Source: the human T2T-CHM13v2.0 reference genome, Homo sapiens
DNA length: 64,000 bases
Assembly: GCF_009914755.1 (NCBI RefSeq)
Contig: NC_060947.1
Direction: 5' to 3' (one strand)
Position numbers and translations under genes: made by a program. The notes under the pieces are model-generated. The model was given only the letters and a program-made list of their open reading frames with translations, was not told the DNA's origin and did not search any database. Position 1 is the first letter of the stretch, and every line of letters begins with the position of its first letter. This document shows, in pieces, positions 1,584 through 58,843 of this stretch.

Positions 1584-2090
1584 TGTGGTGGAGTGAAAAA
1601 TGGCCAACTATTTTGTGCTATTTGTCCTGTCAAAAAACAGGGTCTAATTCCTCTCTCCTTGAATCTAGGCTGGCCTTAGTGACTTACTTGACAAATAGAA
1701 TATGGTAGAACTGACATTTTGGGACTTTTGTGGCTGTGTTATAAGAAGCCTTACAGTTTCCACCTGGTTTTCCTAGAACCAAACTACTCTGCTGTAAAGA
1801 AGCCCCCAAAAGGCATGTGGAAATGCCCACAATGAAAAGCATCAAGACCTCTGGCCAACAGCCCCAGCTGAGCTCCCAGATGGCAGCTACTACTAATTTG
1901 CCAGACTTGTGAATATATCACCTTGAAAGCAGATCCTCCAGTCCCGGTTGGGCTGCCTCAGCTGGCGCAACACGAGCAGTGACAGGCCATCTCTGCCAAG
2001 CCTTGCCCAAATTCCAGAAACATAAAAAACAAATGATCATGTTATTTAAGCCACTAAGTTTTGTGTAGTTTGTGTAGTTTGGTGTGCAAG
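1584..2090 (+). mobile_element. MLT1G/H-like MaLR solo LTR
   Basis: tgtggtgg start; ccttgaatctaggctggccttagtgact; gccccagctgagctccca; tttaagccactaagttttg end. Confidence 0.8.
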
Positions 2091-2345
2091 CAGTTCTGGT
2101 GCAGTGGCTGCTGCTGGCAGGCCACTGTGTGGCTGAATCTGCTTCTTCCACCCTAGCCTCTTTCTGATATGGATTGTAAATCTTTAGAGTTCTTTTTTTA
2201 TATAAATTAAAAAGTAATATAAGTTTCATGTAGTAAAGTTAGGAAATACAGAGAAGGAAAACAAAAAAATTAAAATTACTCATTGTGCTACCTCCCAGAA
2301 ATAACCACCATTAATATCTTGGTGCCTAACATTCCAGATTTATTG

Positions 2346-2440
2346 CCTTCCTTTCTTCCTTCCTCCCTCCCTCCCTCCCTCCCTCTCTCCCTTCCTTCCT
2401 TCCTTCCTCTCTCTCTCTCTCTTTCCTTCTTTCATTTTCT
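2346..2440. repeat. Pyrimidine-rich simple repeat (CCTT/CCCT/CT), expanded Alu tail
   Basis: almost pure C/T tract directly abutting the Alu poly(T). Confidence 0.9.
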
Positions 2441-2729
<289 letters not shown>

Positions 2730-4081
2730 CAGATATCTTTCTATACATGTATTCACACGCATATATTTTTGAATGGTAGCATAAATATCTGCTGCTTTGA
2801 AATCTGGTGTTTTCAATGAACAATGTAGCCACAACATCTCTGACTACAATAAATATAAATCCATAGTTTTGTTTTAATGACTGTCTAGTATTATATCTCA
2901 TGGAGCTAAAAAATTTTAATTATCCTTGTTGCTGGGCATATAGGTTCCTCTCCATTGTTTGCTCTAATAAATGCTGATTCGACAAACATGCATTTGTAGC
3001 TAGATCTTTGTACAAAGTTGTTTTCTTTTAGATCGTTTTAAAAAGTTGATCACTGAGTCAATAAACATGCATCTTTTAAAGCTTTTGGTCTAAAATTTCC
3101 AAGTTATCTAGGGTCTTATTTTGTATGAAGCATACAGGGCTCCTGTTGGAATATGGAACTGAATGAAGGAAAAGATGGAAACCAGAAGCATTTTAGAAGT
3201 GTCAGTATGAAGTGTGTGTCCACATGAATGGATGAAATTTTAATTGAATCTAAATCTTCTGTATCAAATCAGAGAAGTCTATATTGCACCTCCCATGGAT
3301 TCATGTCTGAGCACTTGAATGATGACCCCAAAAGAGTAGAGTGTTATCAAGTCTTGGCTAAAGGAGAGATTATATGCAGCAAGAACAAGCTCTCAGGTTG
3401 AGTGACCAAGGTGCTCTCTAAATTGAAATCATGTTGAGACTAAAATCATGTGTGCCCCATGAGGAGACTATCAACCCTGACCAATGTCCTCTGGGAGAAT
3501 CTGGGATTCAAGACAAGATGTAGATGTGAGTAGCTGGTAAGGCCAAGGCACCAAAGTGAGATAAAAGAGGAGCCTGAGAAGTGAGTTTAAGAAAGACTTT
3601 TCTGGCCAGATACCTTTCATCCCTCCACCTTCAAAGAAGTCTGGGCTATTGGCCATGGCTGCCCTCCCCACATATGGCAACTGAACACAAGGTCTAGGAG
3701 GTATCATGCTGGAAAATGCATACACACATGGTTGCAACCTCTACTCAGTTTCTAAAATCACTATTTTTGGTGATTTAGTCTAAGCCCTGAAGCCCATGAG
3801 CAAGGGGACATTTGCTCTGCCTTTTGATTTGACAACAGGATAACCTGTGCAATAAATTGCTAAGCCTGGAGAACAATGACTGAGTCAAATCCTGTGGTGG
3901 CTAGATTTTCTTCTAGCTGCACTTCTCACTCCATTGCAAATCAAGGGAATGTGAACATTGCAAGGGGAATGGGACCATAGAACTATTAGGTTTTCCTCCA
4001 GCTTTGAGGTTTTATGAGTTGATAGGCATGTCTGCATATGACTTGATCATAAATGGAGAACATCCGGCAAGCTCAGGGCAT

Positions 4082-4126
4082 CTCATGGCAGTCAAGCTCA
4101 TGGCAGTCAAGCTCATGGCAGTCAAG
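4082..4126. repeat. Tandem repeat, 3 perfect copies of 15-bp ctcatggcagtcaag
   Basis: read directly; degenerate partial copy caagctcagggca just upstream. Confidence 0.95.
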
Positions 4127-4924
4127 GAGATTTAGTGTGTGCATGTGGGTGTTTATCCATTGATTGGAGGGGAAAGGCTCCCTCTTGAGGCTGGAAATTA
4201 CTCTTTTCTTAGCAGAAAAGCAAAAAAGAGAAATGAAGGAGTTTGGAGGAAAAGGAACATTTGAGAGTTGGGGGGTGGGGGTTGGTGGGGAGAGCCTTTG
4301 TCCCCGACAAAATGAACTTAGTAATGGGAGGTTTGGAGTTAGTGAGGCAGGCTGACTCACAGCTGGAACAGTAGGTGACCTCTATGTGGCCTCCAGATCC
4401 CACAAAGAGACGGTCTATTGAAGTTTTGAAGTGGGAAAGTCAGGAGGGCAGGCAGCAGAGGCAATAAAGCCAAAGTGGAAAGACTCTTGGCTCATAAGAA
4501 CAGAAATTTGGCAGCATGGGGGTGATGGGGAGCTTGCCAGCTTCATATACCAACTACTGAACAAATGTTGTTAAATATTGCTTGCTGTGAATTAAACTTC
4601 TCAGTATAACTCTTTGCCAAGAATGTTCAATAAGACATGGTGCATGGGCAAAGAATACCACTTGATTAATGTAATAGATATGCTCAGGTATAACACACAC
4701 TAAATAAAATAGAATATTCATGAAATTCTTACTATGGATGCTTCATCATAGTCAAAGACAGCTAAAGGGTATGTGTGTGTGCATGTGTGTGTGTGCATGC
4801 CCATGCATGTGTGGGTGTTGCTTCTCTAGAGGGTTATAGGCATATGTTGGGAGAGCCTATGAACCCAAAGCTGAGGCTACAATTGAGAAAGAGAAGTCAG
4901 GAATGTTTCCCAGTAATTAATGTT

Positions 4925-5120
4925 TACTTGAATCATTAATTCACATAATACTTGTTGTATATTTACAGTGTACCAAGTGCTGCCCTGGGCTCCATATTTT
5001 ATGTAAATGAATAAGACCAGGTTTTTGGCCCCAGAGGAATGCACAGTTAGAGGAATGAGACAATGGCATACAATGTTATAAATACTGATAGAAGTTAGCT
5101 CAAGTATTATGGGGGTTTAA
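4925..5120 (-). mobile_element. L2 3' fragment
   Basis: tcattaattcac...tgtaccaagtgctgccctggg...atgaataagacc. Confidence 0.6.
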
Positions 5121-5230
5121 TCCACTCTAGAGAAAATGGAGTAAAGGAAGAATTCTCTGTGATGGTGGGGTAAATGAAAAGCTTTTAATGAACAGGTGAT
5201 AGAACCCAGTGAGAGGGGGCCTAACTGGGT

Positions 5231-5249
5231 CAGCCACTAGGGGGCATGT
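5231..5249 (+). promoter_or_regulatory. Candidate CTCF binding motif
   Basis: cagCCACTAGGGGGCAtgt matches core CCASYAGRKGGCR at all 13 positions. Confidence 0.6.
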
Positions 5250-5959
5250 GAGTACGGGTCTGCAACTGGGAAAGAGGCTCCTGTTGATGGCTTCTGGTAG
5301 CAGTAGGGAGACTGTTTCCCTTAAATAGGAAACCAGAGAGGAAAGGATAGTTTTTCTGCTCTTGTCTCTCCATTAAAGCAAATGGTTATTTTATAGGCAA
5401 ACTGACAGGTATTTGGTAATTGAGGGGGAAACGGTGAGCTTGTTCCTGAGGTGGTGGATCTCACTAATGTGGGTCCCAGTAGATTTAGGCTAGGTACACA
5501 TGGCTGGAAAGCTTAGCAAGATGGGAGAGATGGCAGCAAGACACATGCCAGGGACCACAGGGAGCCCAGCACAAGAAGACTCCTGCTTCCCTAGTAACCA
5601 GAGGTCATGTACAGAGTCAGGGTGATGAAGGGGATTTTGGCTTCCATGTGCAATCCAATTTCTCTTAAAGTCATCCCATTTTATATCCTGATTTAGCTTT
5701 AATTTTTCCAGGCCTCTCCAGTGTGTGGGAAGTCATGGGACTGAATTAATAGGGATAATCTAAATGTCCTTAGCTGGTGCCTCCATCCACCCAGTGTGGC
5801 ACCCAAGCCCCTAGATTCATCAAGTCTAGACACAGAAGTCCCCAGGGAGACTCACGGATACTCACAAACAGTCCTCTCATGGTTTTCTCATTCAGGTCCT
5901 AAGCTGAGCTTTCCGCTAAACTTGTGTTAACAGTGTTCTGAAGAATAGGAGGATATTTT

Positions 5960-8960: not shown

Positions 8961-10253
8961 TACACATTCATAGATGTACCACTCACTGAGGAATAGTATA
9001 TTTTCAGAACGGTTTATAATTAGGTGTGGCGAGAGGCTAAAGTCTGGAAGTGGGTGGTGTGAATATTGAAGCAGTTAAGCAGAGACCTATGGTTAGACTT
9101 GTTCCTAAAGAGACTGCTGGTGGGAATGTGCATGATGAATTCCATGGGGAAAAAGACTGGAAGTAGGGAGACCAGTTGACAGAGGAAGAGCCACCTCATG
9201 AGTCTTCAATTTTGCTTCATCAACTCTTGGAGAATAAAAACTGAGGTTATTTAAAAAAGAAACTTAGGAAACAAATTAACCAAAATAAAATTGATTACTG
9301 TTACTGTGCACACTCCCAAAACACTAGACCTTTCTATGAACATCCTCCTGCTACTCTGTACCTTATCTTGGGTCATTTTAAAAATGTTCTTTGCAATGGC
9401 TCCTCTTAAAGTAGAATTGAGATTGAGCTCCCTCTCTTCCTCCTCTGAATGTTTCCTGTTCTGCCTCCCGTATTCCTTTTCTCTTCTTAGCCTGGCTAAC
9501 CCTGAACTAGGGTTGCTAATTTAAGGTAAAACAAATTTGGGTCTCAAGAAACAGAACTCCCCTCTCAATCATTGGGGTTTGTATGGAAATGTCATTGTAG
9601 ATTTTTATGGCATAAAGCCCAGATCACCTACTATTTAACATCTAGAGTTGAATCACAAATATGGAAAGAGATCCAAGATTACTAATGAGCTGCCTTAGTC
9701 TGCCAAGAAGCTCACTCAATATCAGGAAAAAAAAGTCTATTGCATGGCATCTGTCTGTAATGCTAGCCAAAGAGGTGTACAATGGGCAGTCACAATTGAA
9801 AATGACCTTCATTATGCTGAATTCATTTCTCTAATGTGTCCATTTTTCCTCATCGTGTATCTCGACAGTAATAATAGACATGGAAATAAATTCAAATTGT
9901 GATTCAAATTTCAGAATGTGAGATTCACAGGTGTGGTGGCTTTTCTCAGCTGAATGTGGGGGGTAGATGAGTAAGAAATCTAGGAGGATTTAACAAAGTG
10001 AGGAGCATTGTTCAGAAAATCAGACATGGACACAGCATGGGCAAGACTGTCTGTCTTACTCAAACAAGAATCTTTACATAATGTACCAAAAATTTAAGTA
10101 AGTGATTTGCAGCTCAGGAAGAAAAAGTTAACTCTTAGCATTACAGATAGGCCCCAAAATATCTTTGAGCACCTGTTTCTGCTTTCTAGGTGCCGTACCT
10201 GTGGTGCCACTGGGACCATAGAACCATTTGGCCCTTGTTTGTTTATACTGGCT

Positions 10254-10490
10254 GTGTAGTTAGCAGAAAGAGTGCTGGATTCCAAGTCAGGAGACCTGGA
10301 GTGGATCCCTGGCTCTGCTACCTATTGTCTGTGCCATGACAAGGAGTCACTTAACCCCTGAGCTTTAGTTTCTGCAACTGCAAAAGGGGACTATAATCAC
10401 TGCACATTATACCTTGCAGGTTTGTTAGGATCAAATGACATAATGGATGTGGAAGTGCTTTGTCAGTTGTAAAATACATTATTATTGTCA
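10254..10490 (+). mobile_element. MIR SINE
   Basis: gaaagagtgctgga...agtcaggagacctgg...gtcacttaacc.ctgagctttagtttc...aggatcaaatga. Confidence 0.85.
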
Positions 10491-11289
10491 TCACAGTGAT
10501 TTCTCTCCGTTATTTCAGAGAACACTGAAATACCAGAAAATCAGTGTCAATTTCCACTCTGTGAAAATTTCCACTTACCCATAGCCTGATAATTTTATGC
10601 ATGATGAGTCTCTCCTCCATCTCTCTCAGTGTTGTTCCTGAGAACTCTCAGGCTGGGTTGTAGCAGCTCTCTCTTGCTGCTAAAGTGTGTATGATGTACG
10701 ATTTGATGAAGGGGCCTTGTGGTTGACTGAGAAACGCAGGGTAGGTCAACACAATACCAAATCTGGATGAATTCAGTGCACAAAATCATCAAGCCTCTTG
10801 ATTGGTCTTTCTATACGTACAGCCTCAATCTCGTAGCTTAAAAGATGGCGGCAAGCTCATGACCTTTGCTTAATGCAATGTTTTGCTACTCTCTACCATT
10901 CTGGATATCAAAGGAAGCTACCAAATCAACCTGAGAGAGTAATTTCTTAATGAGATTCTTCAAAACATAGATAAATGGACAGTGCTGTCATTTCCATGAA
11001 AAACAGAAATGATAAAAGGAACTCTATTTCCTTTACCTCATGACTCATCCACTTGCTGGTGGGAGGGTTTTTTTATGTTTTTTGTTTTACTCTTTTGGAG
11101 AATAGCCAAAAGGGTATTATTCTGTTATGCTTAACAGAACAATAACTGTCCTGTGCATTTTTAACAGAGCTTTCACATATATTATCTCATTTGAACTCAT
11201 TTTATTTACAACCACCTCTTTGCTCTGTCCTTTCATCTAGCTTACAGAGAGTATCTTGTCATTGCTGTATCTTCATAATTGCCTCCCAG

Positions 11290-12383
<1,094 letters not shown>

Positions 12384-12389
12384 TAATTT

Positions 12390-12535
12390 GATGCAGGTAT
12401 AATCATCATTCCCATTTTAAAGATATGAAAACAGAGGCATAGAGCCTTGCCAGTAGTAACACAACTAGGACTGAGTTAACACTGAGCTAGGACTGCAACC
12501 TAGTTCTTATGACTATTCTGGCTTCTTTCCATGCT
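12390..12535 (-). mobile_element. MIR fragment
   Basis: atcattcccattttaaagatatgaaaacagaggcatagag. Confidence 0.7.
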
Positions 12536-13540
12536 GCCAGAAGAGGACTACCAGCTTAAAGGAACACACCAGTCACACATTTCCTGTAAGACAGGAAGTC
12601 TTCCAAATGCATTGAATTAAGCCTGCTGTCTGATCCTTGCTGTTGCAGTGACCTGGAGTACTGGAATCCCCCTACTGATTGAAGCAAGCAGCTACCATCC
12701 TAGAAACATAACGACAACAGGTTTTATATGTAAAACACATTAACTAAGAAAGGATATCATTTATCAATTAAATTTTAAACTGGCACTACAACAACCCATT
12801 CAGGTGCAATCTCCTAGCTTTCTTGCAATCTTGGGACCCTCACCTGCTGCTATGCAAACAGATATAGGGTCACTCCCCCAAAGCTGGACATGGATGGCCT
12901 GGGGATTACAGGGTTTGGTTTTATGTGCTGCTACCTTCTTCCCTTCAATGGAGTTGCCAAAATAACCAGATGTTATTAGCCAGATATGTCTGGAAAGAGG
13001 CCAATCAGTGATGTAGAAAATAGAAGAAAGTGTTAGGATTCAAAGTGTTAGATGAAAAATTAAAACTCTTTAGGTGCCTTGAGGCTGATGAAAAACTTTG
13101 CCAAACTGCTAGGACTGTAAGGCTGACTGTTCCTAGAATGGAAACACTGTAGGAGGGGCTCACAAGTCAGGAGGAGCTCACAAGTCCATGGCCAGATGTT
13201 TGCTTCTATTTATATTTTCCTACTTTTGTTTTGGGACAAATTTGGGGTAACTGATATTTTGAGGTTTTGTTGTTAATATTCTGCTGTATTTTATCAGACT
13301 GTAAATAGGGCTGTTTAGAAGATTTGCTGCATTTTGGACTGTGTTTGTCTTACATTCAATTAAAATTTTCCCCTGGAGATCTGGCTCCAATTAGATAATA
13401 GAAGTTATCAAGAAACTGAGTTTTTTTTGATGATCGCTTTTAAACAAACTTTGCTGGAATGTATCTGTTAGCTTTTGCAAGAAACATCTGAAATTTTAAA
13501 TAGAAGTTTTAGAATTCCTTTACTGAAAAATGCTTGTTGA

Positions 13541-15330
13541 TCAATATTTGCAAATCATATATCTGATAAGGAAACTGTATCTAGAATATATAAGAACTCT
13601 TACAACTCAATAATAGAAAGACAAACAACAATTTTAAAATGTACAAATAATTTGAATAGACATTTTCTCAAAGAAGATAAACAAATGGCTAACAAGAACA
13701 TGAAATGATGCTCAGCATCATTAGTCATCAGGGAAAAGAAAATCAAAACCATAGTGATACACCACTTCACATCCATTAGGATAGCTATAACCACAAGATC
13801 AGACAATAACAAGTGTTAGCAGGGGTGTGGAGCAATTGAAAACCCCATATATTTTTGGTGAGAATGTAAAATTGTGCTGCTACTGTGGAAAGCAGGCTGG
13901 CAGTTCCTTAAATAGTTAAACACAGAGTTATAAGATAACCCAATAATTCTACTTCTGGGAATATACCCAAAGCAATTCAAAGCAGGACTCAAACAAATAT
14001 TTGTACACCACTGTTCAGAGCAGCATTATATACAACAAGCAAAAGTTGGAAACAATCCAAGTGTTCATCTACTGATAAATGGATAAAATAATATGGCATG
14101 TTCACACAATGGAATATTATTTGGCCATAAAAGGGAATAAAGTACTGATTCATATTACTTAAAAAAAACTTTTAGTTCAGGGTACCTGTGCAGGTTTGTT
14201 ATGTAGGAAAATTACATGTCACATGGGTTTAATGTACAGATTATTTCATTGCCAGGTAATAAGTATGGTACTTCATAGGTAGTTTTCCAATTCTCACCCT
14301 CCTCGCACTCTATCTTCAAGGAGGCCCTGGTGTCTGCTGTTCCCTTTTTTGTATCCACATGCACTCACTGTTTAGCTCTCACTTGTAAGTGAGAACATGA
14401 GGTATTTGGTTTTCTGTTCCTGCATTAGTTCACTTAGTGTAATGGCCTCCAGCTCCATCCATGTTGCTGCAAAGGATATGACCTCATTCTTTTTTATAGC
14501 TGCATAGTATTCCATGGTGTATATGTGCCAAGTTTTCTTTATCCAATCCACTGTTGATGGGCATTTATGTTGATTCCATGTCTTTGCTATTGTGAATAGT
14601 GCTGTGATTAACATAATGTATGCATGTGTCTTTATGGTAGAATAATTTATAACCTGCTCGGTATATACCCAGTAATGGGATCGTTGGGTCGAATGATAGT
14701 TCTGTTGTAAGTACTTTGAAAAATATCCAAACTGCTATCTAGTTTTCTGCTATCCAGAAATTTCCAACTGCTACTTACAGTGTCTGAATTAATTTACATT
14801 CCCACCAGTAGTGTGTAAGCATTTCCTTTTCTCTGCAACCTTGCCAGCATCTGTTATCTTTTTGAATTTTTAATAATAGCCATTCTGACCAGTATGAGAT
14901 GTTATCTCATTGTGATTTTTGACTTGCATTTCTCCAATGATCAGTGATGTTGAACACTTTTTCATATGCTTCTTGGCCACATGTACGTCTTCTTTTGAAA
15001 AATGCTACAACATGGATAAACCTTGAAAACATTGTGCTAAGTTAAAAGCCAGACACAAAAGACCACATATTCTATCTCTATGAAATGTCCAAAACAGGCA
15101 AATTTATAGAGAGAAAGTAAATTAATGGTTGCTAAGGCTTAGGGAAGTGGGCGGGTAATTATGGGGTGATAGCTAAAGAGTATGGAGTTCATTTTTGAGG
15201 TAATGAAAATATTCCAAAACTGATTGTGATGATTGCTGAACAATTCTGTGAATCTACTAAAAACCATTACAATTAACGGGTGAATTATATGGTATGTGAA
15301 TTACATCTCAACAAAATTGTTACAAAGAAA
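13541..15330 (+). mobile_element. L1MB (7/8-like) 3' portion, split by an L1PA insertion
   Basis: atatttgcaaatcatatatctgataagg...aagtactgattcat // atgctacaacatggataaaccttgaaaac...gaattacatctcaacaaa. Confidence 0.85.
14160..15001 (-). mobile_element. L1PA13-16-like 3' fragment
   Basis: reverse ORF2 C-terminus (ORF 14372..14614: [22 protein letters not shown]) plus 3' UTR. Confidence 0.9.
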
Positions 15331-15509
15331 ATATTGCTGGCCATGTTCTTTGTGCCTTGTGCTGTATCAGGTGCTGGGGACAGGGGTGCAGATATAACCA
15401 AGAGTCAGAAGCCCCCAAGAAGCTTATGATTTAAGGGGGCAAATAGGAAAGAAAGCAACTATCAAGATAGGGTAAAAAAAAAAGATGCTATGCTTGAAAA
15501 CCCAAATAC

Positions 15510-15939
15510 CTGCTCAGCTTCCTTTGGAGCTCAAGGTGGCCACATGACAGTGACATAATTATGGCTAATGATACATAAACAAAAGACTGCTAAGGGGCTT
15601 CTAGCAGAGTTTTTCTTTCCTGAAGAAAAGATACAGGCATTGCTAATGCTTTCTGCTTTTCCCTAGTTCCTGCCTTGAATGCAGACATGATACCTGGGGC
15701 TCTAATAACCATCTTGCAGCTGAATTACTGGCAACAATGAAGGTGAGAAGCCAACACATTAAGGGTGGGTGGCAGTGCGGAGACTGTAAGATGGTCTGGT
15801 CTCTTGATGGCCACAATGAATGAATGCCAGCAACCACCTACCTCCGGACTTATGTAAGAAAAATAGCCTTCTATTTGTATGAGTCATTGCTGCTGGACGT
15901 TCTGTTACCTGAAGCCAGAAAGTGTTCTCCACTGATACA
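15510..15939 (+). mobile_element. MLT1J-like LTR
   Basis: ttcctgccttgaatgcagacatgatacctgg; cctacctccggactt; ttctgttacctgaagcc...ctgataca end. Confidence 0.75.
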
Positions 15940-16049
15940 GAGTGTATGAAGAAACTTTATAAGCCAAAAAATTATTTAAAAAAATAAAGAATGATTTCTA
16001 GAAAAGGAGAAATATATGACTTGAGTTACATTTTGATAGCAGGCTAAAA

Positions 16050-16830
16050 AATAAATTGGCGAGTTGTAGTAGGGAATGTTAGTGAGGTGGTGGTGACAAG
16101 AATGAAGACAATAAACAATGGAAGTGCAGTGGCAGCGAGGATGGGGACAAAAGGACAGATGCCAGAGAGAACATGGAGGGGTAACTGATAGGACCAGACA
16201 ACTGATCGGACATCAGAAGGGGTGCAGAAATGGGAGGGTTTGAAAATGCTTTGAAAGATTTTAGCCCTGGTGACCGAAGGGATGGTGGAACTGTAAACCT
16301 ACATTCCTAATAAGGGAATGAGTATAACTTTAAAGAGAACGATAATTAGTTCACTTTTGGACATATTGACTTTGAATTGCCTGCAACACACTTAAGAGAG
16401 GTCCTGTAGGCAGTTGAAAATCTGGGAATTAAAGAACAGATGGAGATATGCATTTGGATGTCTTCAGTGTGCAAGTGGCAGCTAAAGCCATAGATGTGGG
16501 TGGTATCACTCATGAGGAGTAGGGATGGTATAGAAGAAAATGGCAAGAGATGGAAACTTCTGTGTGTAGGGGATGTCTACGTTTAAGTATTAGGTGAAAA
16601 TGAGGAGTCAGTAGAGAAGAGACTAAAAAGAAACTTTCTATGATTTTAAAATGTTTATTGAGTGCCTGCTATGTGCTAGACACTGGGCTCAAGACTGAGT
16701 AGTCAGAAAAGCAGGAAGAGACCCAGAAATATGTGAAGCTGTGGAGGACGTGGAGCAGGAATGGCCCTGGTCAACAGTGTCAAATGCTGAAGAAAAGTCA
16801 AGTGGGATGAGAAATGAGGAACTCCTTTCC
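16050..16830 (-). mobile_element. L2 fragment(s)
   Basis: agttcacttttggacatattgactttga; ggtcaacagtgtcaaatgctg. Confidence 0.75.
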
Positions 16831-17819
16831 TCGGCCACATTCATCTGAATTCCTTTAACGGGAGTTTATTGTTAACTGTAATAGCCTGTCTGGAAGACAA
16901 ATGCTAAATTAATTTGGGAACTGACTTCTAAAACTCTCAAGTGGCCTAAATCATTTAAAAGAGGTTCAGATTCTATTATGTGAGATTGAATTGGTTTCTG
17001 TAGGTGGTTGTGCAACATTCTCCCCTAGAGATCTGTATGTCACATATGGTTTCTGTCCAGTTCCTCCTAGGAGCAAGAATAGTGGTGATGTGAGAGCAGA
17101 GCAACTTCATCAAATCGCTCTGATGCCTTATTCTGTGAATGTAAATTGGAGCTCCTTGCTTTGAACTCTAATAGACCTTAGTGCCTATGCTGTGCAATAT
17201 ACACTTGATTAATATGATCTTTTCCTTACTTGTGTCATGGGTGTTAGGCTTGCCTCTCTAAATACACTGAAAGTCCCTTAAGGGTAGAGATTATGTCTTT
17301 TGGTTCTCTCCCATTTCCTACAGGGCTGGACAGAATAGGCATTAAATAAATGTTTGATTATGTCATAGGACTATAGTCAAAGTGGTTTTATAGAATGCCA
17401 ATGTGCATTTTATAAAATGTACATTTTTAAAAATTAATGTTATTTTAAATCCCAATATAAAAAAAATCTAGCTATATAATTTTATTGATACAGGGTATAG
17501 TTTGGAAGAGTATAAAGAAAGTGCATGAGTGAACTAGCTGGCATGGATTGCATCTTGGGCTGGACGAGTAAGCAAAAAAGAAAGAGATCTGGCTTGAATG
17601 AAACTCAGTATCACTTGGCAGCAATCTCCCAGCTCTCTGTGGGGAAGCCTGGATTAATGCCAACAGGATGAAGGGTATTTCAGGAATCCACTGCAATGTT
17701 TAAAGATCTGTGCTTGGGATCTTTATGGGCCCAGTCAACAACAACAGGTGCATTAGAACTTTTTTTATAAGTTAATTCACTAAACGTTTATTGAGCTTAT
17801 ATTACAAGCAGGTACATGT

Positions 17820-49130: not shown

Positions 49131-49839
49131 GCACAGGGGTTGGTGTTTCGTGCTTGGACTGTATTAACTCTTTGGAGAGCAATATTAAGACAAAAACATC
49201 ATAATGTCAGAGCTTTATATGCACACAAAACCTCCATCCAAATGGTTTCGATTTATTTTTTGGAGAAAGGAAATCTTAGGCCCATCAGCCACATTCTTCA
49301 GGGTTGATTAGTATTGTTTCTATTTCCAATGTTTGGAATTTAGATGGCTCTGAGTGATTTGTGCATGGAATGGCAGCCCAAGTTCTGTTGTCACCACTGT
49401 TCCACTTGCTGCTTTCACAGTTTGCCCTACCTTTGTTTAAAATGATTGAAGAATGCTGTGAGGGCTGCTCTGAGGAAGCAGACAAGTGCATGCAAGTCTC
49501 TTCTTAAAGCAGCCTTTCAGCTTCCAAAGGAGGAGAAGAACTAATAATCTTTTATTTGTTTAGGCTGTTTGTGTTTATAGAATCCAGGAGTTCTCAGCAA
49601 CTTTCATTTAGCTTTTACAAATCACACACATACATTCTCCAAAATACAGCAGCTTAACCATTTCTCACCTTTGCAGTTTTTATCACTGGGCATAAAGTAA
49701 CCCCAAATGAAAACAAAGTAGGTGACAAAAATAGAATATGCTTTCAAAACTTTACTAATATCAGAAAAAAAGTGGAACTTCTAGGCCAACTAAAGATGTT
49801 TAGTCCTATGAATTTGTTAGGATTATTCTATACCTTATT

Positions 49840-50239: not shown

Positions 50240-51109
50240 TTCCTGCTAAGAGGAAAACATGAAAACTTTAACTAAACATCATTTTTTATGGCTTCTCTTG
50301 GGGTCTGGCTCCGTGGCGTGCTCTCCTTCAGATCTTGCTCAGTCTTTCTCTTTCACCAAGCGATCTCCATGGTTGGTACTAAGGCTTATCAATAAGAGAA
50401 CACGATCCTGACCTTTAAAATGTATCCCAATAGTCCTTTGAACTGGGATTTTAATCTGCAGATAAAATGCAGTCAAATGATCAAATTTACTCATTTATTG
50501 TTTTACTTCTCATATAATGTCCCTTCATTTTATTAAGAGAATATTATATTTCTTTAATAAATAGTGTCTCTCCTAATCCCTGTAATTTCCATCTCTTGCT
50601 TTTGAACAGCATGCTAGAGAAGCGCCTTTTTTTGTTTTTTTTTTTAAAGAAGCACAATGGCTTTGGTCTTTCTAGGGAAGACAAAGGGCTAAATTAAAGG
50701 CACAGCTGGCAACTTGACACTGGCTGGGGGTGGAGAGACCTAGTTAGCATTCATCCATTTACCTCTGTCCAGTTGGCTAGCTTGTCTCTCTCTTCTTTCT
50801 CATCCCCTGAAGGCTGGGAGTAAAGAATCACCAGGTTCTTTATGGTACTTCCAACAGCTGGACCTATAGCAATTGCCTGCGGGTATGTCTTCCCTTGGAC
50901 AATAGGTGAGTAAGCCTGTAACCAGGTTGTCAAGAAGAGAGGAAATCCGAAATGTAAACATCAGCTTTCAATTACACTTGCACATATCTTTCTCTTACAA
51001 ATACCACACCTCATTTTTCATCTTTCTGAATGCATGATTTTGTTTCATTGAGAGAGAATTCACATTTTGAATACAGTGTCACAACTCAGTTTAGTTGAAA
51101 AGAAGTCCT

Positions 51110-51231
51110 TCATTTGTTCATTAATCCATTCATAGAACATTTGGTATGTTCTAGGCACTATACTAAACGCTTGTGCAGTCAAACATGAATCAAGCAGTCC
51201 CTGACCTTGAGAAGCTACAGTTTCATGGAGG
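51110..51231 (-). mobile_element. L2 3' end (continues after 52261)
   Basis: catttgttcattaatccattc...ctaggcacta...gtccctgaccttgagaagctacagt. Confidence 0.7.
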
Positions 51232-51781
51232 TGTCGAGGCATTGGAACAAGAGCAACTCCATCTTGAATAGGAGCTGGGTAAAATGAGGCTGAAACCTAC
51301 TCGGCTGCATTCCCAGATGGTTAAGGAATTCTAAGTCACAGGATGAGATTAAAGGTCAGCACAAAATATAGGTTGTAAAGACCTTGCTGATAAAACAGTT
51401 GCAGTAAAGAAGCCCACCCAAACCCACCAAAACCAAGATGGTGACGAGAGTGACCTATGGTCGTCCTCATTGCTACACTCTGACCAGCTCCATGACAGCT
51501 TACAAATGCCATGGCAAGGTCAGGAAGTTACCCTATATGGTCTAAAAAGCAGGAGGCATGAATAATCCACCTTTCGTTTAGCATATCATCAAGAAATAAC
51601 CATAAAAATGGGCAACCAGAAGCCCTCGGCGCTGCTGTCTATGGAGTAGCCATTCTTTATTCCTTTACTTTCATAATATACTTGCTTTTGCTTTGCACTG
51701 TGGACTCACCCTGAACTCTTTCTTGTGTGAGATCCAACAACCCTCTCTTGGAGTCTGGATCGGGACCCCTTTCCTGTAACA
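51232..51781 (+). mobile_element. MER41A solo LTR (ERV1)
   Basis: TG..CA termini; gagcaactccatcttgaataggagctgggtaaaatgaggctga; ggacccctttcctgtaaca; 550 bp; GAGG on both sides. Confidence 0.93.
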
Positions 51782-51785
51782 GAGG

Positions 51786-52257
51786 TGTGAAAGGAAAAGA
51801 AATCTTAGGGCTCCCAAAAACACTAAGCTAAAGGGAAAAGTCAAGCTGGAAACTTCTTGGGCCAATCTGCCTCCCATTCTATTCAAAGTCACCCCTCTGC
51901 TCACTGAGATAAATGCATATCTGATTGCCTCCTCTGGCGGAGCTTATCAGAAACTCAGAAGAATGCAACCATTTGTCTCTTACCTACCTATAACCTGGAA
52001 GCCCCCTCTCCACTTCCAGTCTGTCCACCTTTGCTTCGAGTTGTCCCACCTTTCCAGACAGAACCAATGTTCATCTTACATATGTTGATTGATGTTTCAT
52101 GTTTCCTTAAAATGTATAAAACCCAACTGTGCTCTGACCACCTTCGACACATGTCGTCAGATCCTCCTGAGGTTGTATCACTGGTACGTATCCTCAACAT
52201 TGGCAAAATAAACTTTATAAATTAACTGAGACCTGTGTCAGATTTTCGGGGTTCACA
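51786..52257 (+). mobile_element. MER4A1 solo LTR (ERV1)
   Basis: tgtgaaaggaaaa..aaatctt...cactaagctaaagggaaaagtcaagctgg...gggttcaca; 472 bp; GAGG on both sides. Confidence 0.92.
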
Positions 52258-52575
52258 GAGGCAATAGATATTTAATCAGGTTTTGATACACTATGGTAAG
52301 TGCAGTGATAAAAAATGCAAAGGTGAGGAATGGTTGAACTGCTGTATTTTGACAAAGAATGTGTTTGTGTGATTTATAAAAGCTAAATGAAAGTTGCTGA
52401 GAATGTTTAGGTAATCTCTTGCCTTCTCCTTTCCCTTCTGTTCTGACCATGAAGCAACCCTGGAGTTTCTGTGAATCTGCTGTTATTCTGGGGGCTGCCC
52501 GATTCGCGAATCATTCATTGCTCAGTTAAACTCTGTTAAATTTAATTCAGCTGAAGGTTTTCTTCTTTTATCAGA

Positions 52576-52593
52576 TGGTGTCACAAGTGGGAT
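52576..52593 (+). other. Primer binding site, tRNA-Leu(CAA)-like
   Basis: tggtgtcacaagtgggat vs TGGTGTCAGAAGTGGGAT (complement of the tRNA-Leu 3' end as I recall it), 2 nt after the LTR CA. Confidence 0.8.
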
Positions 52594-54140
52594 TCAAAGT
52601 AGAGCTCTAGCCACCCCCAGGAGTGCTGAGTGAACATGGAAGGACCCACTTGTGTCCATTGATCTCTCAGAGATGCTGGGGATTGTGGGTATACTCCCTT
52701 TTGGATTTCGGAGCTCCATGGATTTGTGTTTTGAGCTCTCTGAGTTTCTTTGAGCAAATTTCTGATTCAAACTGGGTTTGGAGTCATGACAGAAACTAGA
52801 CTGGGTTCAGCAATGGATTTGATCTGGGAATTAACTGGCTCGAATCCAGTTAGAGGCCTCTTACATCTGACTGGGTCAGAAAGGAGCTGGTAGTAAGCAG
52901 TAATATTGCAGGGGGTATAAAATTTGGCTTTTGAAAATTCACAGGGATTTTTGTGTTATACCACTTTGTTTCATGTTTCTTGTGTACTTAGGTAGGAAAA
53001 ATTATTGGCTAAGTTAATCAAGAGAACCTGAGCATAAAGCCAATATTTTAGGTAAAATGAGATCCTTAATTTCTAGAAAACTGAGTTCCTTCTGGTTTAT
53101 ACTTTAGGCCCGGGAAGAAGCAAAATCTTACAGAAATGGCAAAATCTTACTAAAGATAACTTATAGTGGAACATTCCGAATGAACAACAACGCATTGAAG
53201 TACATTTAAAAATGAAGGCTCTCAGTAAAGTTCCTTTTGGCTAAGAATGGGTTTAGTACTATAGCATGTCAACTGCTATTCTCTTTGGAAGAATCTGCCT
53301 TGCATTCTTTGCTGATGGCTGTGGGTGACAGGATTAGGCACATACAAGATCGTGAGACATGGGGAGCTTTTTCCTCTCTAAAAGGGGAAACTTGAGAGCT
53401 GATGGGACTGCTGGAAAAGATCCCTTTTATACCGAGAAGCAGTCGCCTGAACTTTTTAGTGTTGCTGCAATGGGTGGGTCTTTCTCTGGCCTCCCTGAGC
53501 AGCTCACCTTCCCCACCCTGCCATGGGCAATGCTTTTCTCTCTCTACTTTTCCTGTCTTATATTTTCTATTACTCAGGGCGACCATCTTGCCCAGAGACC
53601 ACATGTTGAAACTCCTGGTTGGAGGTTGGATTAACGATCATGGGGCCTAACCAGGGGCAAGTTTGAGCCTTGCCAGTTTGATATTGGGTGCTAATCAGAA
53701 TGTCTGTGTTTTGTCACATGTATTTTACTCTGGCCAGAGCAAAAAAAGATACTTTTCCTTTATGCTACAGCTTGGTCACAGTGCAATGGTGCAGAGAACT
53801 GAGTCACTAGGGCCACTCAGGGAAAGGAACCCAGAAACCTGGCATGCTGGCAAAAGGGGAAGAATTTCTTACCAGTCAGATTTCTTGCTTCTTTCTCTCT
53901 GTGCAAATGGTTGAATGGATGGTAAAAAATTACTGTTTATCTCCATCTTGTTTCACGTCCTTGGGAGCTTGACCTTGTAACCATATGACAATACTTTCTC
54001 TTGGTCTCTGCCTTCCAGAGAACAGGAATTTTAGGGTTTATGTCATAGTTAGCTCTAAAAATTATCTTGAGTAGTTAATAGCCTTTGCAAGCTCAACATT
54101 AATGACTGTAGATTCCTTCTGGGGAGGGCAATGGAGATTA

Positions 54141-54216
54141 CCCTCTGCTGTAGCTCAGTAGCTAAGGTTTCTCCTTTTCACACTGGCAGTCTGGGTTCAA
54201 TTCCCTGCTTAGGCAG
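54141..54216 (+). pseudogene. tRNA-Glu(TTC)-like relic inside the ERV internal region
   Basis: A box tagctcagtagc, loop ttTTCac, B box ggttcaattcc at tRNA spacing; stems degraded. Confidence 0.6.
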
Positions 54217-56724
54217 TAAGTCCCTTTTGGTTTAATATCTGCATGACCTTGTTTAGCCTCTTCTCCTCCATGGACTATCTTAAATTTTCTTTTCTCTGAG
54301 CACCTAGGAGGTTACCTTTGGTAAAGTTCAAAGGCCAGAAATATCGGCCCCTTGGCCTGGCTAAGGTTGGGTAATAAAAAATACTAAAAAGACTTTATTA
54401 CAGTGCTATGGTTAAAAGTCAGCTTAATTAAAAGCAGATATTCAAGCTCTAACAGCCTGTACACCTTGGGAAAAACAGGAGGCACCAGAAACTCCTTTCC
54501 TGGCCCTATTCTTCCAAGGGCTCCACCCTAAAGCCAATAACCAATTAAGAAACTTAAAAACTGGCAAACGAAAAATCTTACAACTACTGTAGTAATCTTC
54601 CGTCTGTCTGTGTAATTATATATGTGTTGTGTGTAATGTTTATATAAAAGAGCTCTAATTAATTGGCTTAAACAAAAACAAATGCTTAAATCAAGTATTT
54701 TAAAAGCAAAATAAAAACAGCTTTAAAGATTATTGATAAAATAAAGACATTTTGTCTAAATTATGCAGATCAGATATTAGGTTTGAAAATGCTTTAAAGT
54801 CATAACTGCTTTGACTTTTGAAAATTGTTCAATTTATTTTGGAGACATTACATTCTAAATAGGCCTGGGGATATATGGAATTAACCATGCTCACTAGCTA
54901 TGCAAAGAAGGTTATAAAGAAAAGAGATTTTATATAAGAAAGGATGTTGTATGGTAAATTCCTGTCCTAAAGTAAAATAACTGGGTGTTTAAAAAGAGGG
55001 GTGTTTAGGGCAAATCAGAAAGTCTAAACATGTTGTACATGGTCTGTGTAAGTCGTGAAAGAATTTATGAAAAGATATTTTTGCCAGAAATGTTGTACAA
55101 TTTAAAATTAGGCCTCCTAAATGCTTCCTAAAGTGCCACTATGACTCTTAACTGTACAGTTTGTCTGTTTTACAACTAGGTAAGGCCCGGTACACGCGGA
55201 GTTAGATGCTGGAAAGAGTCAGATCTTATCTGCATTTCTGTCTAGGTCCTAGGTTCCACACCTAGTACACAATTAAAATCCCTTACTTACCAAGGTTTTC
55301 ACCAAAAGTAAAAGTTGCTAAGAATTAACACTGTAATATGTAGTTGAGACTACTGAAAAAATAAGTTTACATACAAGGTATGTAAGGAGAATAAAGTGTG
55401 TTTTCATAAGAGATTATAAAAAGGTATAGAATGTAAATTTCTGCCTAGGTTAGAGGGTTAAAGGATTGTTTTAAATTAAATAAAGCTAAAGATTTGAACA
55501 AGTTGTGAAAGGTTTATAAAAAATTAATTGTAAAATATTCTATGTGTGGACATATTGGCTAAAGTGAAAATGGCATTATTCAGCTTTTTCCATAAATTGG
55601 ACATTGGAATAAAAGCTCAACAGAGTTTTATTAAAACATTGTTCTGCTCTGAGAAAAAAAAAATTTAAAGGGTTATAAAAGGTTTATAAAAATCTTAACT
55701 TGTGGTCAAACTAATTAAAACTGAATAGGTTTATAAAATGTTATTTAAAAGCTAGCTTTAACATCAAAAATACACTAATGGAAACATAAAATTTGGTTTT
55801 CTCTTTTAAAAAGTATTTTGTGTAATATCAAAAGACAAAGGTTTTTGTTTATCTTTTAAGTAACTACAAAGGACACAATGGGGAAGGGAAGGAAAGGAGA
55901 CAGAGTCAGTTGTCCTCATGCTATCTTCATTGGGTCTTGTTTGGAAAGCTGAGTCTCCTCTCTATCAGAATAAGGTTTTTTCCTTTAAAAAATTTATGAG
56001 TTATCATTTTGCTAAATAAATGATTTATGGTACCCTAAGATTTTATGTTGTAATATCCACTGTTTTAAACCTTTGGTATTTAACAAACCTTTCAAAATCA
56101 AGCTCTAGATTATCATGCTAAATCAGCCAATACTAAAATTGTTTAAGTACACAATTTGAATGAACTCCATGGTCTAAGTCAAATTACCTCTGCTAACCCA
56201 TTAGTTATCAGTCCTATGCACCTAAATTGGAGAAACAAGTGGAATGCAGAAGGACATAAGTCCAATGTTAAGCATGGACTCATGAATAACCAGGATGGCC
56301 ACCCTGTCTTTCCTGAGTCCTTAAAGCTTTTGTTATTAAAGGTTCTGCATTACATGAGTCGTCAAGAAAAAAAAAATCCAAATTAAATATATTGATGTGG
56401 TGACTTATAAATTGCAGAAATAATTTAAAACCAGTGTTTGGTTCCATATTTCTGGGAAGACAATCAAAGCTTCAGGTACATTTGGCTACCTGATAGGCCA
56501 TTTAAACATTTATAAAAGGATTTCATTCAATTGTCATTTTTAATTCATTTTTCTGGTTGTATAAAAGCTTTCCCATGCAAGAGGGCTGATGTTATAACAG
56601 TAGATTATTATGCTACAGTGTATTTTCACCAGGTAAATAAAGCTTTTTAATGGTTCACTGAGGACAATCTCTTCACAATCTAGAGCCCGAAGATTGGATC
56701 TTCTGAGAGTATCAGAGAAAGACC

Positions 56725-56781
56725 GTACTTGCCATCCACATTACAGCAAAACTTTGGAGCCTTGAACCTTGGGTTCATAAT
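56725..56781 (+). pseudogene. Integrase C-terminal relic
   Basis: translates VLAIHITAKLWSLEPWVHN, resembling the class I retroviral TAxKxxGxxPWxH motif. Confidence 0.55.
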
Positions 56782-57268
56782 CTCATAACTGGGATGGCTC
56801 CCTCCACACTCCTGGAACTGTACACCCACTGGAACCCTTAAGGTAAAACTAACCAGGAAAGTTTATCCCCAGAAGAAGATAACATCCTTGATGTGAACAG
56901 CTTTCCCCAAGATCACCAATCAAGACTTCTACTATCACTAGACTCTTATATTTGAACATTTTTTCCTTGTTTACGCCTGTATGAACAATAGAAATGAAAA
57001 GGGGATCTATTACTTGCACTTACAGGATATACTTTTATTTTTGAGGGATTTTGCAGCCAGCCTTCTACATGAATAACCGTATACTTTAATAGATAAAAGA
57101 TGAAGGTCCAATGTAGGTGAGAAACTTTGGTGGTACATGTGTTGCCTCATAATCAGTCAAAACTCCTCTTAACCCACATCATGGATTAAAGAGAACATTG
57201 CCAGGAGGCCTTCACTCTTCTAAAAGGACATCATTTGTTATGTCCTTTGTCCATGATTTAGAAAAAAA

Positions 57269-57450
57269 GAGGCAATAATTAGAAATGTCACCCACACAAT
57301 AGGCTTTACAGAAAATTCTACTTTAAAGGCTATCATTGCACAACAGACTTTAAATTCTCTTGTGAAAATTATGCTAAATAATAGAATTGGCTAAACAGAA
57401 AAGTACATGTGCAGCTGCTGACACTCGTGGCCTATGGAAAAATACATCAA
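57269..57450 (+). pseudogene. env TM relic
   Basis: EAIIRNVTHTIGFTENSTLKAIIAQQTLNSLVKIMLNNRIG* (heptad repeat plus start of the immunosuppressive domain), then TCAAADTRGLWKNTS (decayed CX6CC region). Confidence 0.7.
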
Positions 57451-58233
57451 ATGTAGATTATAAAAATTCAGTTGTAGAGGATTAATGAAAAGGCCACTTA
57501 GTCAAGCAAGTAGACTCTTCATCTAGCTCATTCTTTACTTATTTAATTTTAGGTGGTTTGGTTTATGGGGAACCTGGGTAAGGAGCATACTCCAAACTCT
57601 TGGTATTATTCTCTGAATAGTCATAATAATAGTCTCCCTGGTGTGCTGTATTATCTCAAAGGAGTTAAATGTTTTCCTGCAGCCATCTCTAAAACGTCAA
57701 ATGGTCTCTCTTCAACTGGAATGACAAAAGCTGAAAGAAATGTGTGACCATGATAACAACATAACCTATGAATGATGTGCTGAGACCAGAAACCCAAAAT
57801 GATGGTAACTGAGAGTGGCACTAAGGCCCTAAGTTTTGGTCACACTCTCACCTATGTGAGAACCTGGACAAAAAGAGGAAATTTTTTTAAACAAAATTAT
57901 AGGAGGCCATTATTTTGGACTGAACTTATGTGCTAGGCCCTAACAAACCAAACCAAACCAAACTAAAATGGAGTCACTTGTGCTAAATGTGACATAATCA
58001 AGCTAAGGCTTTAAGAAAACACATAGATCCTAAAATGGACCAGGTTTTTTCTCCTGTAAACATCATGTTCCAGTATAAGGAGGTATCCTCTACTCAGTCC
58101 TTATTCCCTCGTTGCAAAACGCACTGTTCTACTTTTCCAGTGGGTTTCAAAACCATATAAGTACATATACCATAGTGATAGTAACACCAGTGACTGAGAT
58201 TTTGGTCAATCTCTCAAAATTGAGAAAATGACC

Positions 58234-58245
58234 AAAAGGGGGGAA
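58234..58245 (+). other. Polypurine tract
   Basis: aaaaggggggaa immediately before the 3' LTR TG. Confidence 0.9.
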
Positions 58246-58843
58246 TTGTTAAACCAAACTAAATATGGCCTGAGAAGGACTCCATACTTCTATATTTGAG
58301 TCCTTGTGGATGAATTGTAACCTAGCTTAATAGTCAGACAAAATTGAAAACCAAACTTAATAGTATGCCCCTGTAACAATGGCTGAGTGTTGGCCAATCC
58401 CAGGAGTCTTACTTCAACTACTCATAGACTGCTGAATGTTCAAACTGCGTTCAAATAAGGCAAATGTTGAGCTGTAACCAATCTCACTGTTTCTGTACCT
58501 CACTTCCAATTCCTGTATGTCACTTTACCTTTTTTGCCTATAAATTTGTTCTGACCACGAGGCACCCCTGGAGTCTCTGTGAGTCTGCTGTGATTCTCGG
58601 GGCTGCCCAATTTGCGAATCATTCATTGCTCAGTTAAACTCTTTTAAATTTAATTCGGCTGAAGTTTTTATTTTATCAACGTAAATGTTTATAAATCAAA
58701 CATTAGAAGGCTTTTGTTGTACTTTGAGCCATGCCAGTTATTACGTGTGAGACCTTGGTTAAGTTACTTCACCCTCTCTAGGTTTCAGCTTTATTATTTG
58801 TAGAAAAAGCAACTGTAAAAAATCTTATAATGTAACAACCAAG

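What the first reader, a model, noticed from the sequence alone, without database searches (positions are those of the whole stretch)
51228..52261. Two different ERV1 solo LTRs share one target site: GAGG-[MER41A]-GAGG-[MER4A1]-GAGG
Seen: GAGG at 51228-51231, 51782-51785 and 52258-52261. These bound two complete TG...CA LTRs of different families, both on the + strand, inside an L2 that resumes afterwards. Known: ERV1 integration gives 4-5 bp TSDs, and the nearby MER61 shows a 4-bp one. Inference: a second retrovirus integrated precisely into one TSD copy of the first, and both proviruses later collapsed to solo LTRs. Base-exact reuse is improbable by chance. It could reflect integrase preference for LTR-host junctions, or a tandem/heterologous co-integration. 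The result is a 1-kb composite LTR regulatory cassette.
Basis: partly seen in the sequence, partly recalled or inferred. Interest (0 to 1): 0.8.

Follow-up and report, generated by a model that had tools for sequence, protein, structure and literature searches.

The report
Two retroviral LTRs sharing one target site
Two ancient retroviral leftovers of different families sit head-to-tail on the human X chromosome because the second virus inserted into the very four bases duplicated by the first; this is real, but probably a rare chance hit in a retrovirus-rich neighbourhood.

Summary
GAGG lies at 51228-31, 51782-85 and 52258-61, bounding two complete TG...CA LTRs on the + strand (51232-51781 and 51786-52257).

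- **Boundaries.** Other genomic copies of both families share these boundaries. Their 4-bp target-site duplications (TSDs) vary, so GAGG belongs to neither LTR.
- **Best reading.** Two successive ERV1 integrations took place, the later one into one GAGG copy left by the earlier. Both elements are now solo LTRs.
- **Not a mobile composite.** Seven whole-genome searches found only one other MER41-to-MER4 junction, on chr13 (found; two searches returned only the window's own locus).
  - That junction is an independent event. It has unrelated flanks, a GAAG duplication, and the most distant LTR relatives in both trees. The MER4 element there is still a full provirus.
- **A third case.** A chr18 locus reads TTAT-[MER41]-TTAT-[MER41]-TTAT.
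- **Chance or preference.** Three such loci exceed a uniform-random expectation. Against a crude local-density estimate they are only borderline. A preference for LTR-host junctions is therefore possible but not shown.
- **Not settled here.** The order of insertion, the L2 identity of the flanks and the family names.
- **Regulatory role.** None was tested.

Interest is modest.

The parts
51228..51231 (+). GAGG, outer left copy of the target-site duplication
   Evidence: Read. It lies directly before the TG of LTR1.
51232..51781 (+).
   Evidence: In one search, 38 of 40 scored hits cover only this part of the composite. In one search, 15 near-full-length copies share its ends. It is preceded by no PPT and followed by no PBS, so it is a solo LTR.
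51782..51785 (+). GAGG, middle copy, shared by both LTRs
   Evidence: Other copies of both families have different 4-mers at this position.
51786..52257 (+). Solo LTR of the MER4A1 type, 472 bp, TGTG...CACA, with TATAAA at 52115 and AATAAA at 52207
   Evidence: In some searches, copies span positions 1-472. Relatives lie next to a PBS-like TTTTGGTAAC or a PPT and internal sequence.
52258..52261 (+). GAGG, outer right copy
   Evidence: It lies directly after the CA of LTR2.
51085..51227 (.).
   Evidence: A genome search found no paralogue. It has no similarity to the chr13 locus. The L2 identity was not verified.
52262..52302 (.). Right host flank, before the next repeats begin
   Evidence: From 52303 on, the sequence matches 49591-49688 in reverse (89%). 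From 52439 on, it matches an LTR of a third ERV.

Best explanation
Two ERV1 retroviruses of different families integrated one after the other at the same 4-bp target. The first integration duplicated GAGG. The second integrase then made its 4-bp staggered cut in one of those two copies, which gave a third copy. Each provirus later lost its interior by recombination between its own two LTRs, leaving two solo LTRs head-to-tail. The base-exact reuse is most likely a rare chance hit in a neighbourhood where ERV1 insertions are dense, not a dedicated mechanism.

- **Shown:** the LTR boundaries, the 4-bp TSD habit of both families, the three GAGG copies, and that no mobile composite exists.
- **Inferred:** that both elements were once full proviruses, the order of insertion (the MER4A1-type first is weakly favoured), and chance as the cause.
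For: - **Sequence and boundaries:**
- **TSD habit:** perfect 4-bp TSDs were read at 5 of 15 MER41-type copies and 5 of 14 MER4-type copies, plus one more. Several further copies show one mismatch. Copies beside a PBS or PPT are proviral LTRs and do not count against this.
- **Not one mobile unit:**
  - Only the chr13 locus spans both LTRs.
  - The pattern gave 5 hits against 7 in the control. Only chrX and chr13 among them are real junctions.
  - The pattern, with up to 3 mismatches, found the window's own locus alone.
- **chr13 is an independent event:**
  - The flanks share nothing but Alu sequence.
  - The TSD is GAAG.
  - chrX LTR1 against the chr13 LTR41 has d=0.182, rank 26 of 26. chrX LTR2 against the chr13 5' LTR has d=0.21, rank 18 of 18.
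  - The chr13 MER4 LTRs sit in a separate clade with support 0.999. The two MER41 copies share 0 rare variants.
- **chr13 keeps the provirus state:** the two MER4 LTRs are 5.1 kb apart with d=0.074. There is a PBS-like stretch, a PPT, and internal sequence shared with other MER4 loci.
- **ERV-dense setting:**
  - A third ERV provirus lies at 52439-58678 in the window.
  - The chr13 stretch holds four ERV1 elements in 14 kb.
  - 2 of 36 MER41-centred loci carry a MER4-type LTR piece within 1.5 kb.
Against: - **Three loci is more than uniform chance predicts.** The architecture or a near-version of it was found three times: chrX, chr13 and chr18 (TTAT-[MER41]-TTAT-[MER41]-TTAT). Copy numbers are taken from the candidate counts of the searches: 2977 (MER41 end plus junction), 2245 (MER4 start) and 7207 (both together). 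Uniform random integration would then give roughly 0.01-0.05 such pairs.
- **Local density only partly rescues chance.** With the crude local densities, I expect about 0.16 exact and about 0.8 near-exact cases. Two and three were seen, which gives P of about 0.01-0.05.
- **That density sample may be biased.** It is small, and every query behind it also held MER4 sequence, which may have inflated the density.
- **The order of insertion is unresolved.** Terminal branches are 0.0705 for LTR1 and 0.099 for LTR2, a difference of about 1.5 standard errors.
Confidence: 0.62

Rival explanations
1. The structure is the same (two successive integrations), but the reuse is not chance. ERV1 (gammaretrovirus-like) integration is drawn to the junction between a resident LTR and host DNA. 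There are two possible routes. One is tethering to an active LTR enhancer or promoter. The other is that the duplicated 4-mer and its kept flank are still a preferred, partly palindromic target.
For: - Three loci have an LTR abutting an LTR head-to-tail at the TSD: chrX, chr18 and chr13 (within 0-2 bp).
- This compares with about 0.01-0.05 expected under uniform integration, and 0.16-0.8 under the local densities.
- On chr13 the younger element (MER4 LTR branches about 0.04) landed at the edge of the older one (LTR41 branch 0.080).
- The chr18 empty site is nearly palindromic: CAGTG-TTAT-GACTG.
- A review reports independent murine leukaemia virus integrations at identical nucleotides in palindromic contexts, in tumour-selected data (PMC5340798, section 9 read).
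- BET-protein tethering of MLV to enhancers and promoters is stated in abstracts listed. I read only those abstracts.
Against: - There are only three cases.
- chr18 could instead be a tandem duplication of LTR plus TSD (searches do not decide).
- On chr13 the MER41 LTR has no recognisable TSD of its own. Eight L1 paralogues left the empty site ambiguous.
- No pair was found in the reverse order, MER4 then MER41.
- No inverted MER41-MER41 pair was found.
- If junctions were strongly preferred, thousands of MER41 copies should show more than three cases.
Confidence: 0.27
2. MER41-GAGG-MER4A1 is a single composite element, either a recombinant long LTR or a copied DNA segment. It inserted once into a GAGG target. 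The middle GAGG matches the outer copies by coincidence.
For: - A second locus, on chr13, has the same order, orientation and near-identical spacing.
- The outer GAGG pair would serve as the TSD of the unit.
Against: - Only two loci exist.
- Their LTRs are the most distant pair in both trees.
- On chr13 the 4-bp duplication brackets the MER4 provirus alone. The outer flanks of the pair differ, ATAC against GAAG.
- The chance that an internal spacer equals the TSD is about 1 in 256.
Confidence: 0.03
3. The junction is a 2-LTR-circle-type joint, or the product of a simultaneous co-integration of two viral DNAs. The 4 bp would then come from the unprocessed viral ends.
For: A CA-4 bp-TG spacing is what circle junctions show (recalled knowledge of retroviral DNA ends, not from a call).
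Against: - A circle junction joins two identical LTRs. Here the families differ.
- The bases next to the LTR ends in proviral copies are TT(T) after CA and AA before TG. That would give TTAA, not GAGG.
- It does not explain why the middle 4-mer equals both outer flanks.
- Three TSD copies need two rounds of cutting and gap repair.
- On chr13 the two elements differ in age.
Confidence: 0.02

Closest known systems
Ordinary adjacent or nested ERV insertions and solo-LTR formation in primate genomes
   Same: - TG...CA LTRs with 4-bp TSDs.
- Interiors lost by recombination between an element's own two LTRs.
- Clustering of ERV1 elements.
   Different: The second insertion used exactly the 4 bp duplicated by the first, so one TSD copy serves both elements. 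My literature searches listed no paper that describes this arrangement (listings and abstracts only).
Nucleotide-level integration hotspots of murine leukaemia virus
   Same: A gammaretrovirus-type integrase hits the same nucleotides more than once, often in palindromic contexts (PMC5340798, section 9).
   Different: - Those data are tumour-selected somatic integrations in different animals.
- Here the two hits are fixed germline insertions on one chromosome, so the target was duplicated in between.
- Two different virus families are involved.
Tandem proviruses that share a central LTR (described for HERV-K; the term appears listings, the mechanism is recalled)
   Same: Head-to-tail arrangement of retroviral elements at one locus.
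   Different: - Those arise by unequal recombination within one family and have no TSD between the units.
- Here the families differ and a TSD copy lies between them.
Site-specific LTR retrotransposons such as yeast Ty3 at tRNA genes (recalled)
   Same: Repeated use of one insertion point gives abutting LTRs.
   Different: Ty3 is targeted by a host transcription complex at a fixed position. No such landmark is evident at the three human loci.

Membership tests
ERV1 solo LTR, MER41 group (LTR1) | TG...CA ends shared with many genomic copies | tested here: met
   In one search, 38 of 40 scored hits end within LTR1's limits. In one search, 12 of 15 copies read TGTC at the predicted start; the other three start lines are offset (alignments begin at position 5). 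Thirteen of 15 copies end in ACA and two in GCA or ACG.
ERV1 solo LTR, MER41 group (LTR1) | 4-bp target-site duplication | tested here: met
   GAGG/GAGG in the window. Other copies show ACAG, TTTT, GAGA, GAGG, GAAT and TATG.
ERV1 solo LTR, MER41 group (LTR1) | Match to the curated MER41A model (Dfam/Repbase) | not testable with these tools
No repeat library was available. PMC5753468 (passages read) lists MER41A under MER41-int, ERV1.
ERV1 solo LTR, MER4 group (LTR2) | TG...CA ends, 4-bp TSD, TATA box and poly(A) signal in the sense orientation | tested here: met
   TSDs of other copies are CCTG, GCCT, AAGC, GACA and GCAA. TATAAA lies at 52115 and AATAAA at 52207.
ERV1 solo LTR, MER4 group (LTR2) | Relatives flank a retroviral interior with a PBS and a PPT | tested here: met
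   Four 5' LTR copies are followed by TTTTGGTAAC, TTTTGATAAC or TTTTGGCAAC. Two 3' LTR copies are preceded by a purine tract. Internal sequence is shared among loci. Pfam found nothing in 4 short open frames.
ERV1 solo LTR, MER4 group (LTR2) | Match to the curated MER4A1 model | not testable with these tools
   No repeat library was available. The chr13 LTRs fall in a different clade of the same group.
Composite or recombinant LTR that moves as one unit | The same junction at many loci, each with its own outer TSD | tested here: not met
   There are two loci only. At chr13 the outer flanks are ATAC and GAAG.
2-LTR circle junction | The same LTR on both sides, with a spacer made of the viral terminal dinucleotides | tested here: not met
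   The families differ. The spacer equals the host TSD.
Tandem duplication of LTR plus TSD | Both units are copies of one LTR | tested here: not met
   In one search the locus set was searched with each LTR. LTR1 matched only 51232-51781 of the window's locus and LTR2 only 51786-52257. For the chr18 pair this test is inconclusive.
Insertion into an L2 element | Flanks align to L2 and are contiguous across the empty site | tested here: inconclusive
   The genome search with the left flank found only itself. Local searches found no paralogue.

The most novel reading that the evidence does not exclude
Gammaretrovirus-like ERV1 integrases preferentially reuse the 4-bp duplication at the edge of a resident LTR. 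Head-to-tail LTR pairs that share a TSD would then be a recurrent signature of ancient superinfection, both between families (MER41 with MER4) and within one (MER41 with MER41). They would not be accidents.
Probability: 0.25. Interest if true: 0.6.

Novelty: new member of a known kind. Interest (0 to 1): 0.33.

Why it matters
As a single locus it is a tidy textbook case. It shows that a retroviral TSD can itself be a target, and it leaves a readable record of two infections. It matters more if the excess holds up. Three loci were found with very limited searching. A true preference for LTR-host junctions would be a new rule of integration-site choice for ancient gammaretrovirus-like viruses. 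Such a rule would help to explain why ERV1 elements cluster, and existing repeat annotations and integration-site data could test it. Nothing here shows a regulatory role for the pair.

Tried and rejected
- **Composite mobile unit.** Rejected.
- **GAGG as part of an LTR.** Rejected.
- **Segmental duplication between chrX and chr13.** Rejected. The flanks share only Alu sequence.
- **A hit on chr1 that ran 20 nt past the MER41 end.** It is an ordinary solo LTR with a TATG TSD and a chance resemblance.
- **Reverse order, MER4 tail-4 bp-MER41 head.** 0 hits with up to 3 mismatches.
- **Inverted MER41-MER41 pairs.**
  - A degenerate palindromic pattern gave 24 loci against 3 in the control.
  - Of the 16 I fetched, 14 have no MER41 similarity and 2 have MER41 on one side only.
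  - Of the 8 not fetched, 2 were the known chr18 and chrX junctions and 2 involved Alu. The other 4 were set aside by eye as mixed palindromes.
  - The excess over the control is therefore not real.
- **L1 paralogues to settle the empty site on chr13.** Eight copies were aligned and the result is ambiguous.
- **L2 check of the chrX flank.** No paralogue was found.
- **Pfam on four short open frames of the chr13 provirus interior.** No retroviral domain. The only match at E up to 0.01 was AAA_13, at 15.2 bits against a 36-bit cut-off.
- **Longer frames.** They could not be scanned because the tool refuses translations with stops.
- **Tandem duplication against site reuse at chr18.** Distances and shared rare variants do not decide.

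Full report
**What is in the window**

One search shows ...TTTCATG GAGG | TGTCGAGGCATTGG ... CCTGTAACA | GAGG | TGTGAAAGGAAAAG ... GGGGTTCACA | GAGG CAATAG... The three GAGG copies lie at 51228-31, 51782-85 and 52258-61. They bound a 550-bp element (51232-51781) and a 472-bp element (51786-52257), each starting with TG and ending with CA.

GAGG is common. It occurs 547 times on both strands, against 447 +/- 19 in shuffles, and 286 times on the + strand. The chance that both outer flanks equal the middle 4-mer is still only about 2e-5.

**Are the boundaries right?**

The human assembly that holds the window could be searched.
- With 51700-51870 as query, 37 of 39 non-self hits stop at query position 80-90, at the CA of the first element.
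- One exception is the chr13 locus described below. The other is a chr1 solo LTR whose flank resembles the query by chance.
- With the whole pair as query, 38 of 40 scored hits cover only the first element.
- Copies of the second family span its positions 1-3 to 470-472.

In these independent copies the flanking 4-mers differ from locus to locus.
- For the first family they are ACAG, TTTT, GAGA, GAAT, TATG and, once, GAGG.
- For the second they are CCTG, GCCT, AAGC, GACA and GCAA.

GAGG is therefore host sequence, and both families make 4-bp duplications.

Some copies of the second family are followed by TTTTGGTAAC-like primer-binding stretches or preceded by purine tracts, as expected for proviral LTRs. 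Neither LTR in the window has such neighbours, so both are solo LTRs. I could not check the names MER41A and MER4A1 or the L2 identity of the flanks. No repeat library was available, and the flank search found only itself.

**Is it one composite element?**

Six whole-genome searches could have shown the same junction elsewhere.
- Searches were by similarity.
- Searches were by pattern.

They found one other locus, chr13:50,354,502-50,355,518. It was returned. Searches returned only the window's own locus.

At the chr13 locus a MER41-type LTR is followed by GAAG and then by a MER4-type LTR. That LTR is the 5' LTR of a 6-kb provirus.
- Its partner LTR lies 5.1 kb downstream.
- A purine tract precedes the 3' LTR.
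- A PBS-like stretch follows the 5' LTR.
- The whole provirus is bracketed by GAAG...GAAG.
- Its interior matches the sequence next to other MER4-type LTRs.

The chr13 and chrX loci are not copies of each other.
- Their flanks share only Alu sequence.
- The chrX and chr13 MER41 LTRs are the most distant pair in their set (d=0.182, rank 26 of 26).
- So are the two MER4-type LTRs (d=0.21, rank 18 of 18).
- The chr13 MER4 LTRs lie in a separate clade with support 0.999.
- The two MER41 copies share no rare variant.

The pair is therefore not a mobile unit. The same kind of event happened twice, with different subfamilies.

**What the chr13 locus adds**

It also gives an order. The MER4 LTRs have branches of about 0.04 since integration, and the neighbouring MER41 LTR has 0.080. 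The perfect duplication belongs to the MER4 element. So on chr13 the MER4 virus came second and landed at the 3' edge of the MER41 LTR.

The fit is not as clean as on chrX.
- The MER41 LTR ends GGTAA, without a clear CA.
- Its left flank is ATAC, so its own duplication is not recognisable.
- Eight L1 paralogues did not settle the empty site.

On chrX the order is open. The MER4A1-type LTR has the longer terminal branch (0.099 against 0.0705, about 1.5 standard errors). This weakly favours it as the first insertion.

**A third locus**

A pattern for MER41 end-4 bp-MER41 start gave one hit, on chr18. Fetching the surroundings showed TTAT-[MER41]-TTAT-[MER41]-TTAT, with a different Alu inside each LTR.

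The two LTRs differ by d=0.106. They are each other's 8th and 3rd nearest of 28, and they share two rare variants, which ties for rank 14 among 406 pairs. That fits two insertions from one burst. It fits equally well an early tandem duplication of LTR plus TSD, and I cannot tell these apart.

No pair in the reverse order and no inverted MER41 pair was found. The apparent excess of hits dissolved on inspection. None of the 16 loci I fetched holds two LTRs.

**Chance or mechanism?**

For one site, base-exact reuse is very unlikely. Genome-wide it is not. With N LTR insertions in a genome of G bases, about N squared over G site sharings are expected, which is tens of cases for all human LTR elements. 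The copy numbers behind that estimate are recalled, not measured here.

For the particular pairs seen here, I used the candidate counts as rough copy numbers. Uniform integration then predicts only about 0.01-0.05 cases, against three seen.

Both loci lie in ERV-dense stretches.
- The window has a third provirus at 52439-58678.
- The chr13 stretch has four ERV1 elements in 14 kb.
- 2 of 36 MER41-centred loci hold a MER4-type LTR piece within 1.5 kb, and 1 holds a second MER41. None of the 15 MER4-centred loci holds a MER41.

With these local densities I expect about 0.16 exact and 0.8 near-exact cases, so P is about 0.01-0.05. The sample is small, and all its loci came from queries that also held MER4 sequence, which may inflate the density.

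My judgement is that chance within clustered insertions is the more likely cause, at about 0.6. A real preference for LTR-host junctions is a live alternative, at about 0.25. Reports that murine leukaemia virus hits identical nucleotides repeatedly, in palindromic contexts, give that alternative some precedent (PMC5340798, section 9). The chr18 empty site CAGTG-TTAT-GACTG is nearly palindromic.

**Other readings**

A circle-junction or simultaneous co-integration origin fails for three reasons.
- The LTRs differ.
- The spacer equals the host duplication.
- Three copies of a 4-mer need two rounds of cutting and repair.

**Function**

Nothing supports a regulatory cassette. RefSeq lists no element here. 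LTR1 has lost its AATAAA and has no TTCNNNGAA motif. LTR2 keeps TATAAA and AATAAA.

**Literature**

Four full-text searches listed no paper describing LTR pairs that share a TSD. I saw listings and abstracts only. PMC5753468 (passages) assigns MER41A to MER41-int and MER4A1 to MER4-int, both ERV1.

**Verdict**

It is one instance of a rare but expected outcome of repeated retroviral insertion, with a hint of recurrence that a genome-wide annotation table would settle.

Noticed in passing
window 52439-58678: A third ERV1-type provirus begins 180 bp after the pair. Its 5' LTR is cut down to 135 bp (52439-52573, 88% identical to 58547-58678). A PBS-like TGGTGTCACAAGTGGGATTC follows it. A purine tract AAAAGGGGGGAA lies near 58232-58245, before a 3' LTR of about 433 bp. 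Stretches at 54641-56101 resemble the chr13 MER4 interior.
   Followed up: partly
window 49591-49688 and 52303-52403: An inverted repeat of about 100 bp at 89% identity brackets the LTR pair, 2.6 kb apart. That is too similar for two independent old L2 fragments. Its origin is unknown.
   Followed up: no
L055/L056 (chr13:50,345,001-50,365,000): Four ERV1 elements lie in 14 kb. They are a MER41 3' LTR with its purine tract (2771-3326), a MER41 LTR (9502-10056), a MER4 provirus (10061-16077), and a reversed MER4-type solo LTR with a GCAA duplication (16473-16937).
   Followed up: partly
L055:1145-1921 against L056 interior (positions 3836-4596 of 519-5630): The interior upstream of the chr13 MER41 3' LTR is 78% identical over 813 bases to the MER4 provirus interior. 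The two purine tracts are nearly the same (AAAAAGCAGGGAAAA and AAAAAGCGGGGAAA). The two virus groups are therefore related.
   Followed up: no
L080-L084 (chr18:26,169,360-26,171,320): TTAT-[MER41 LTR]-TTAT-[MER41 LTR]-TTAT. Each LTR is interrupted by its own Alu. The empty site would read CAGTG-TTAT-GACTG, a near palindrome.
   Followed up: yes
L025 (chr2:100,585,753-100,588,792), LTR at 983-1536: An unrelated MER41-type solo LTR also has a GAGG duplication. Five of the eleven MER41 duplications read here begin with GA (including the window's GAGG and one 1-mismatch pair). This may hint at a weak target preference.
   Followed up: no
pattern search: A palindromic degenerate pattern gave 24 loci against 3 for the reversed-pattern control. 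Yet 14 of the 16 loci fetched had no similarity to the LTR. The control underestimates chance matches for such patterns.
   Followed up: yes
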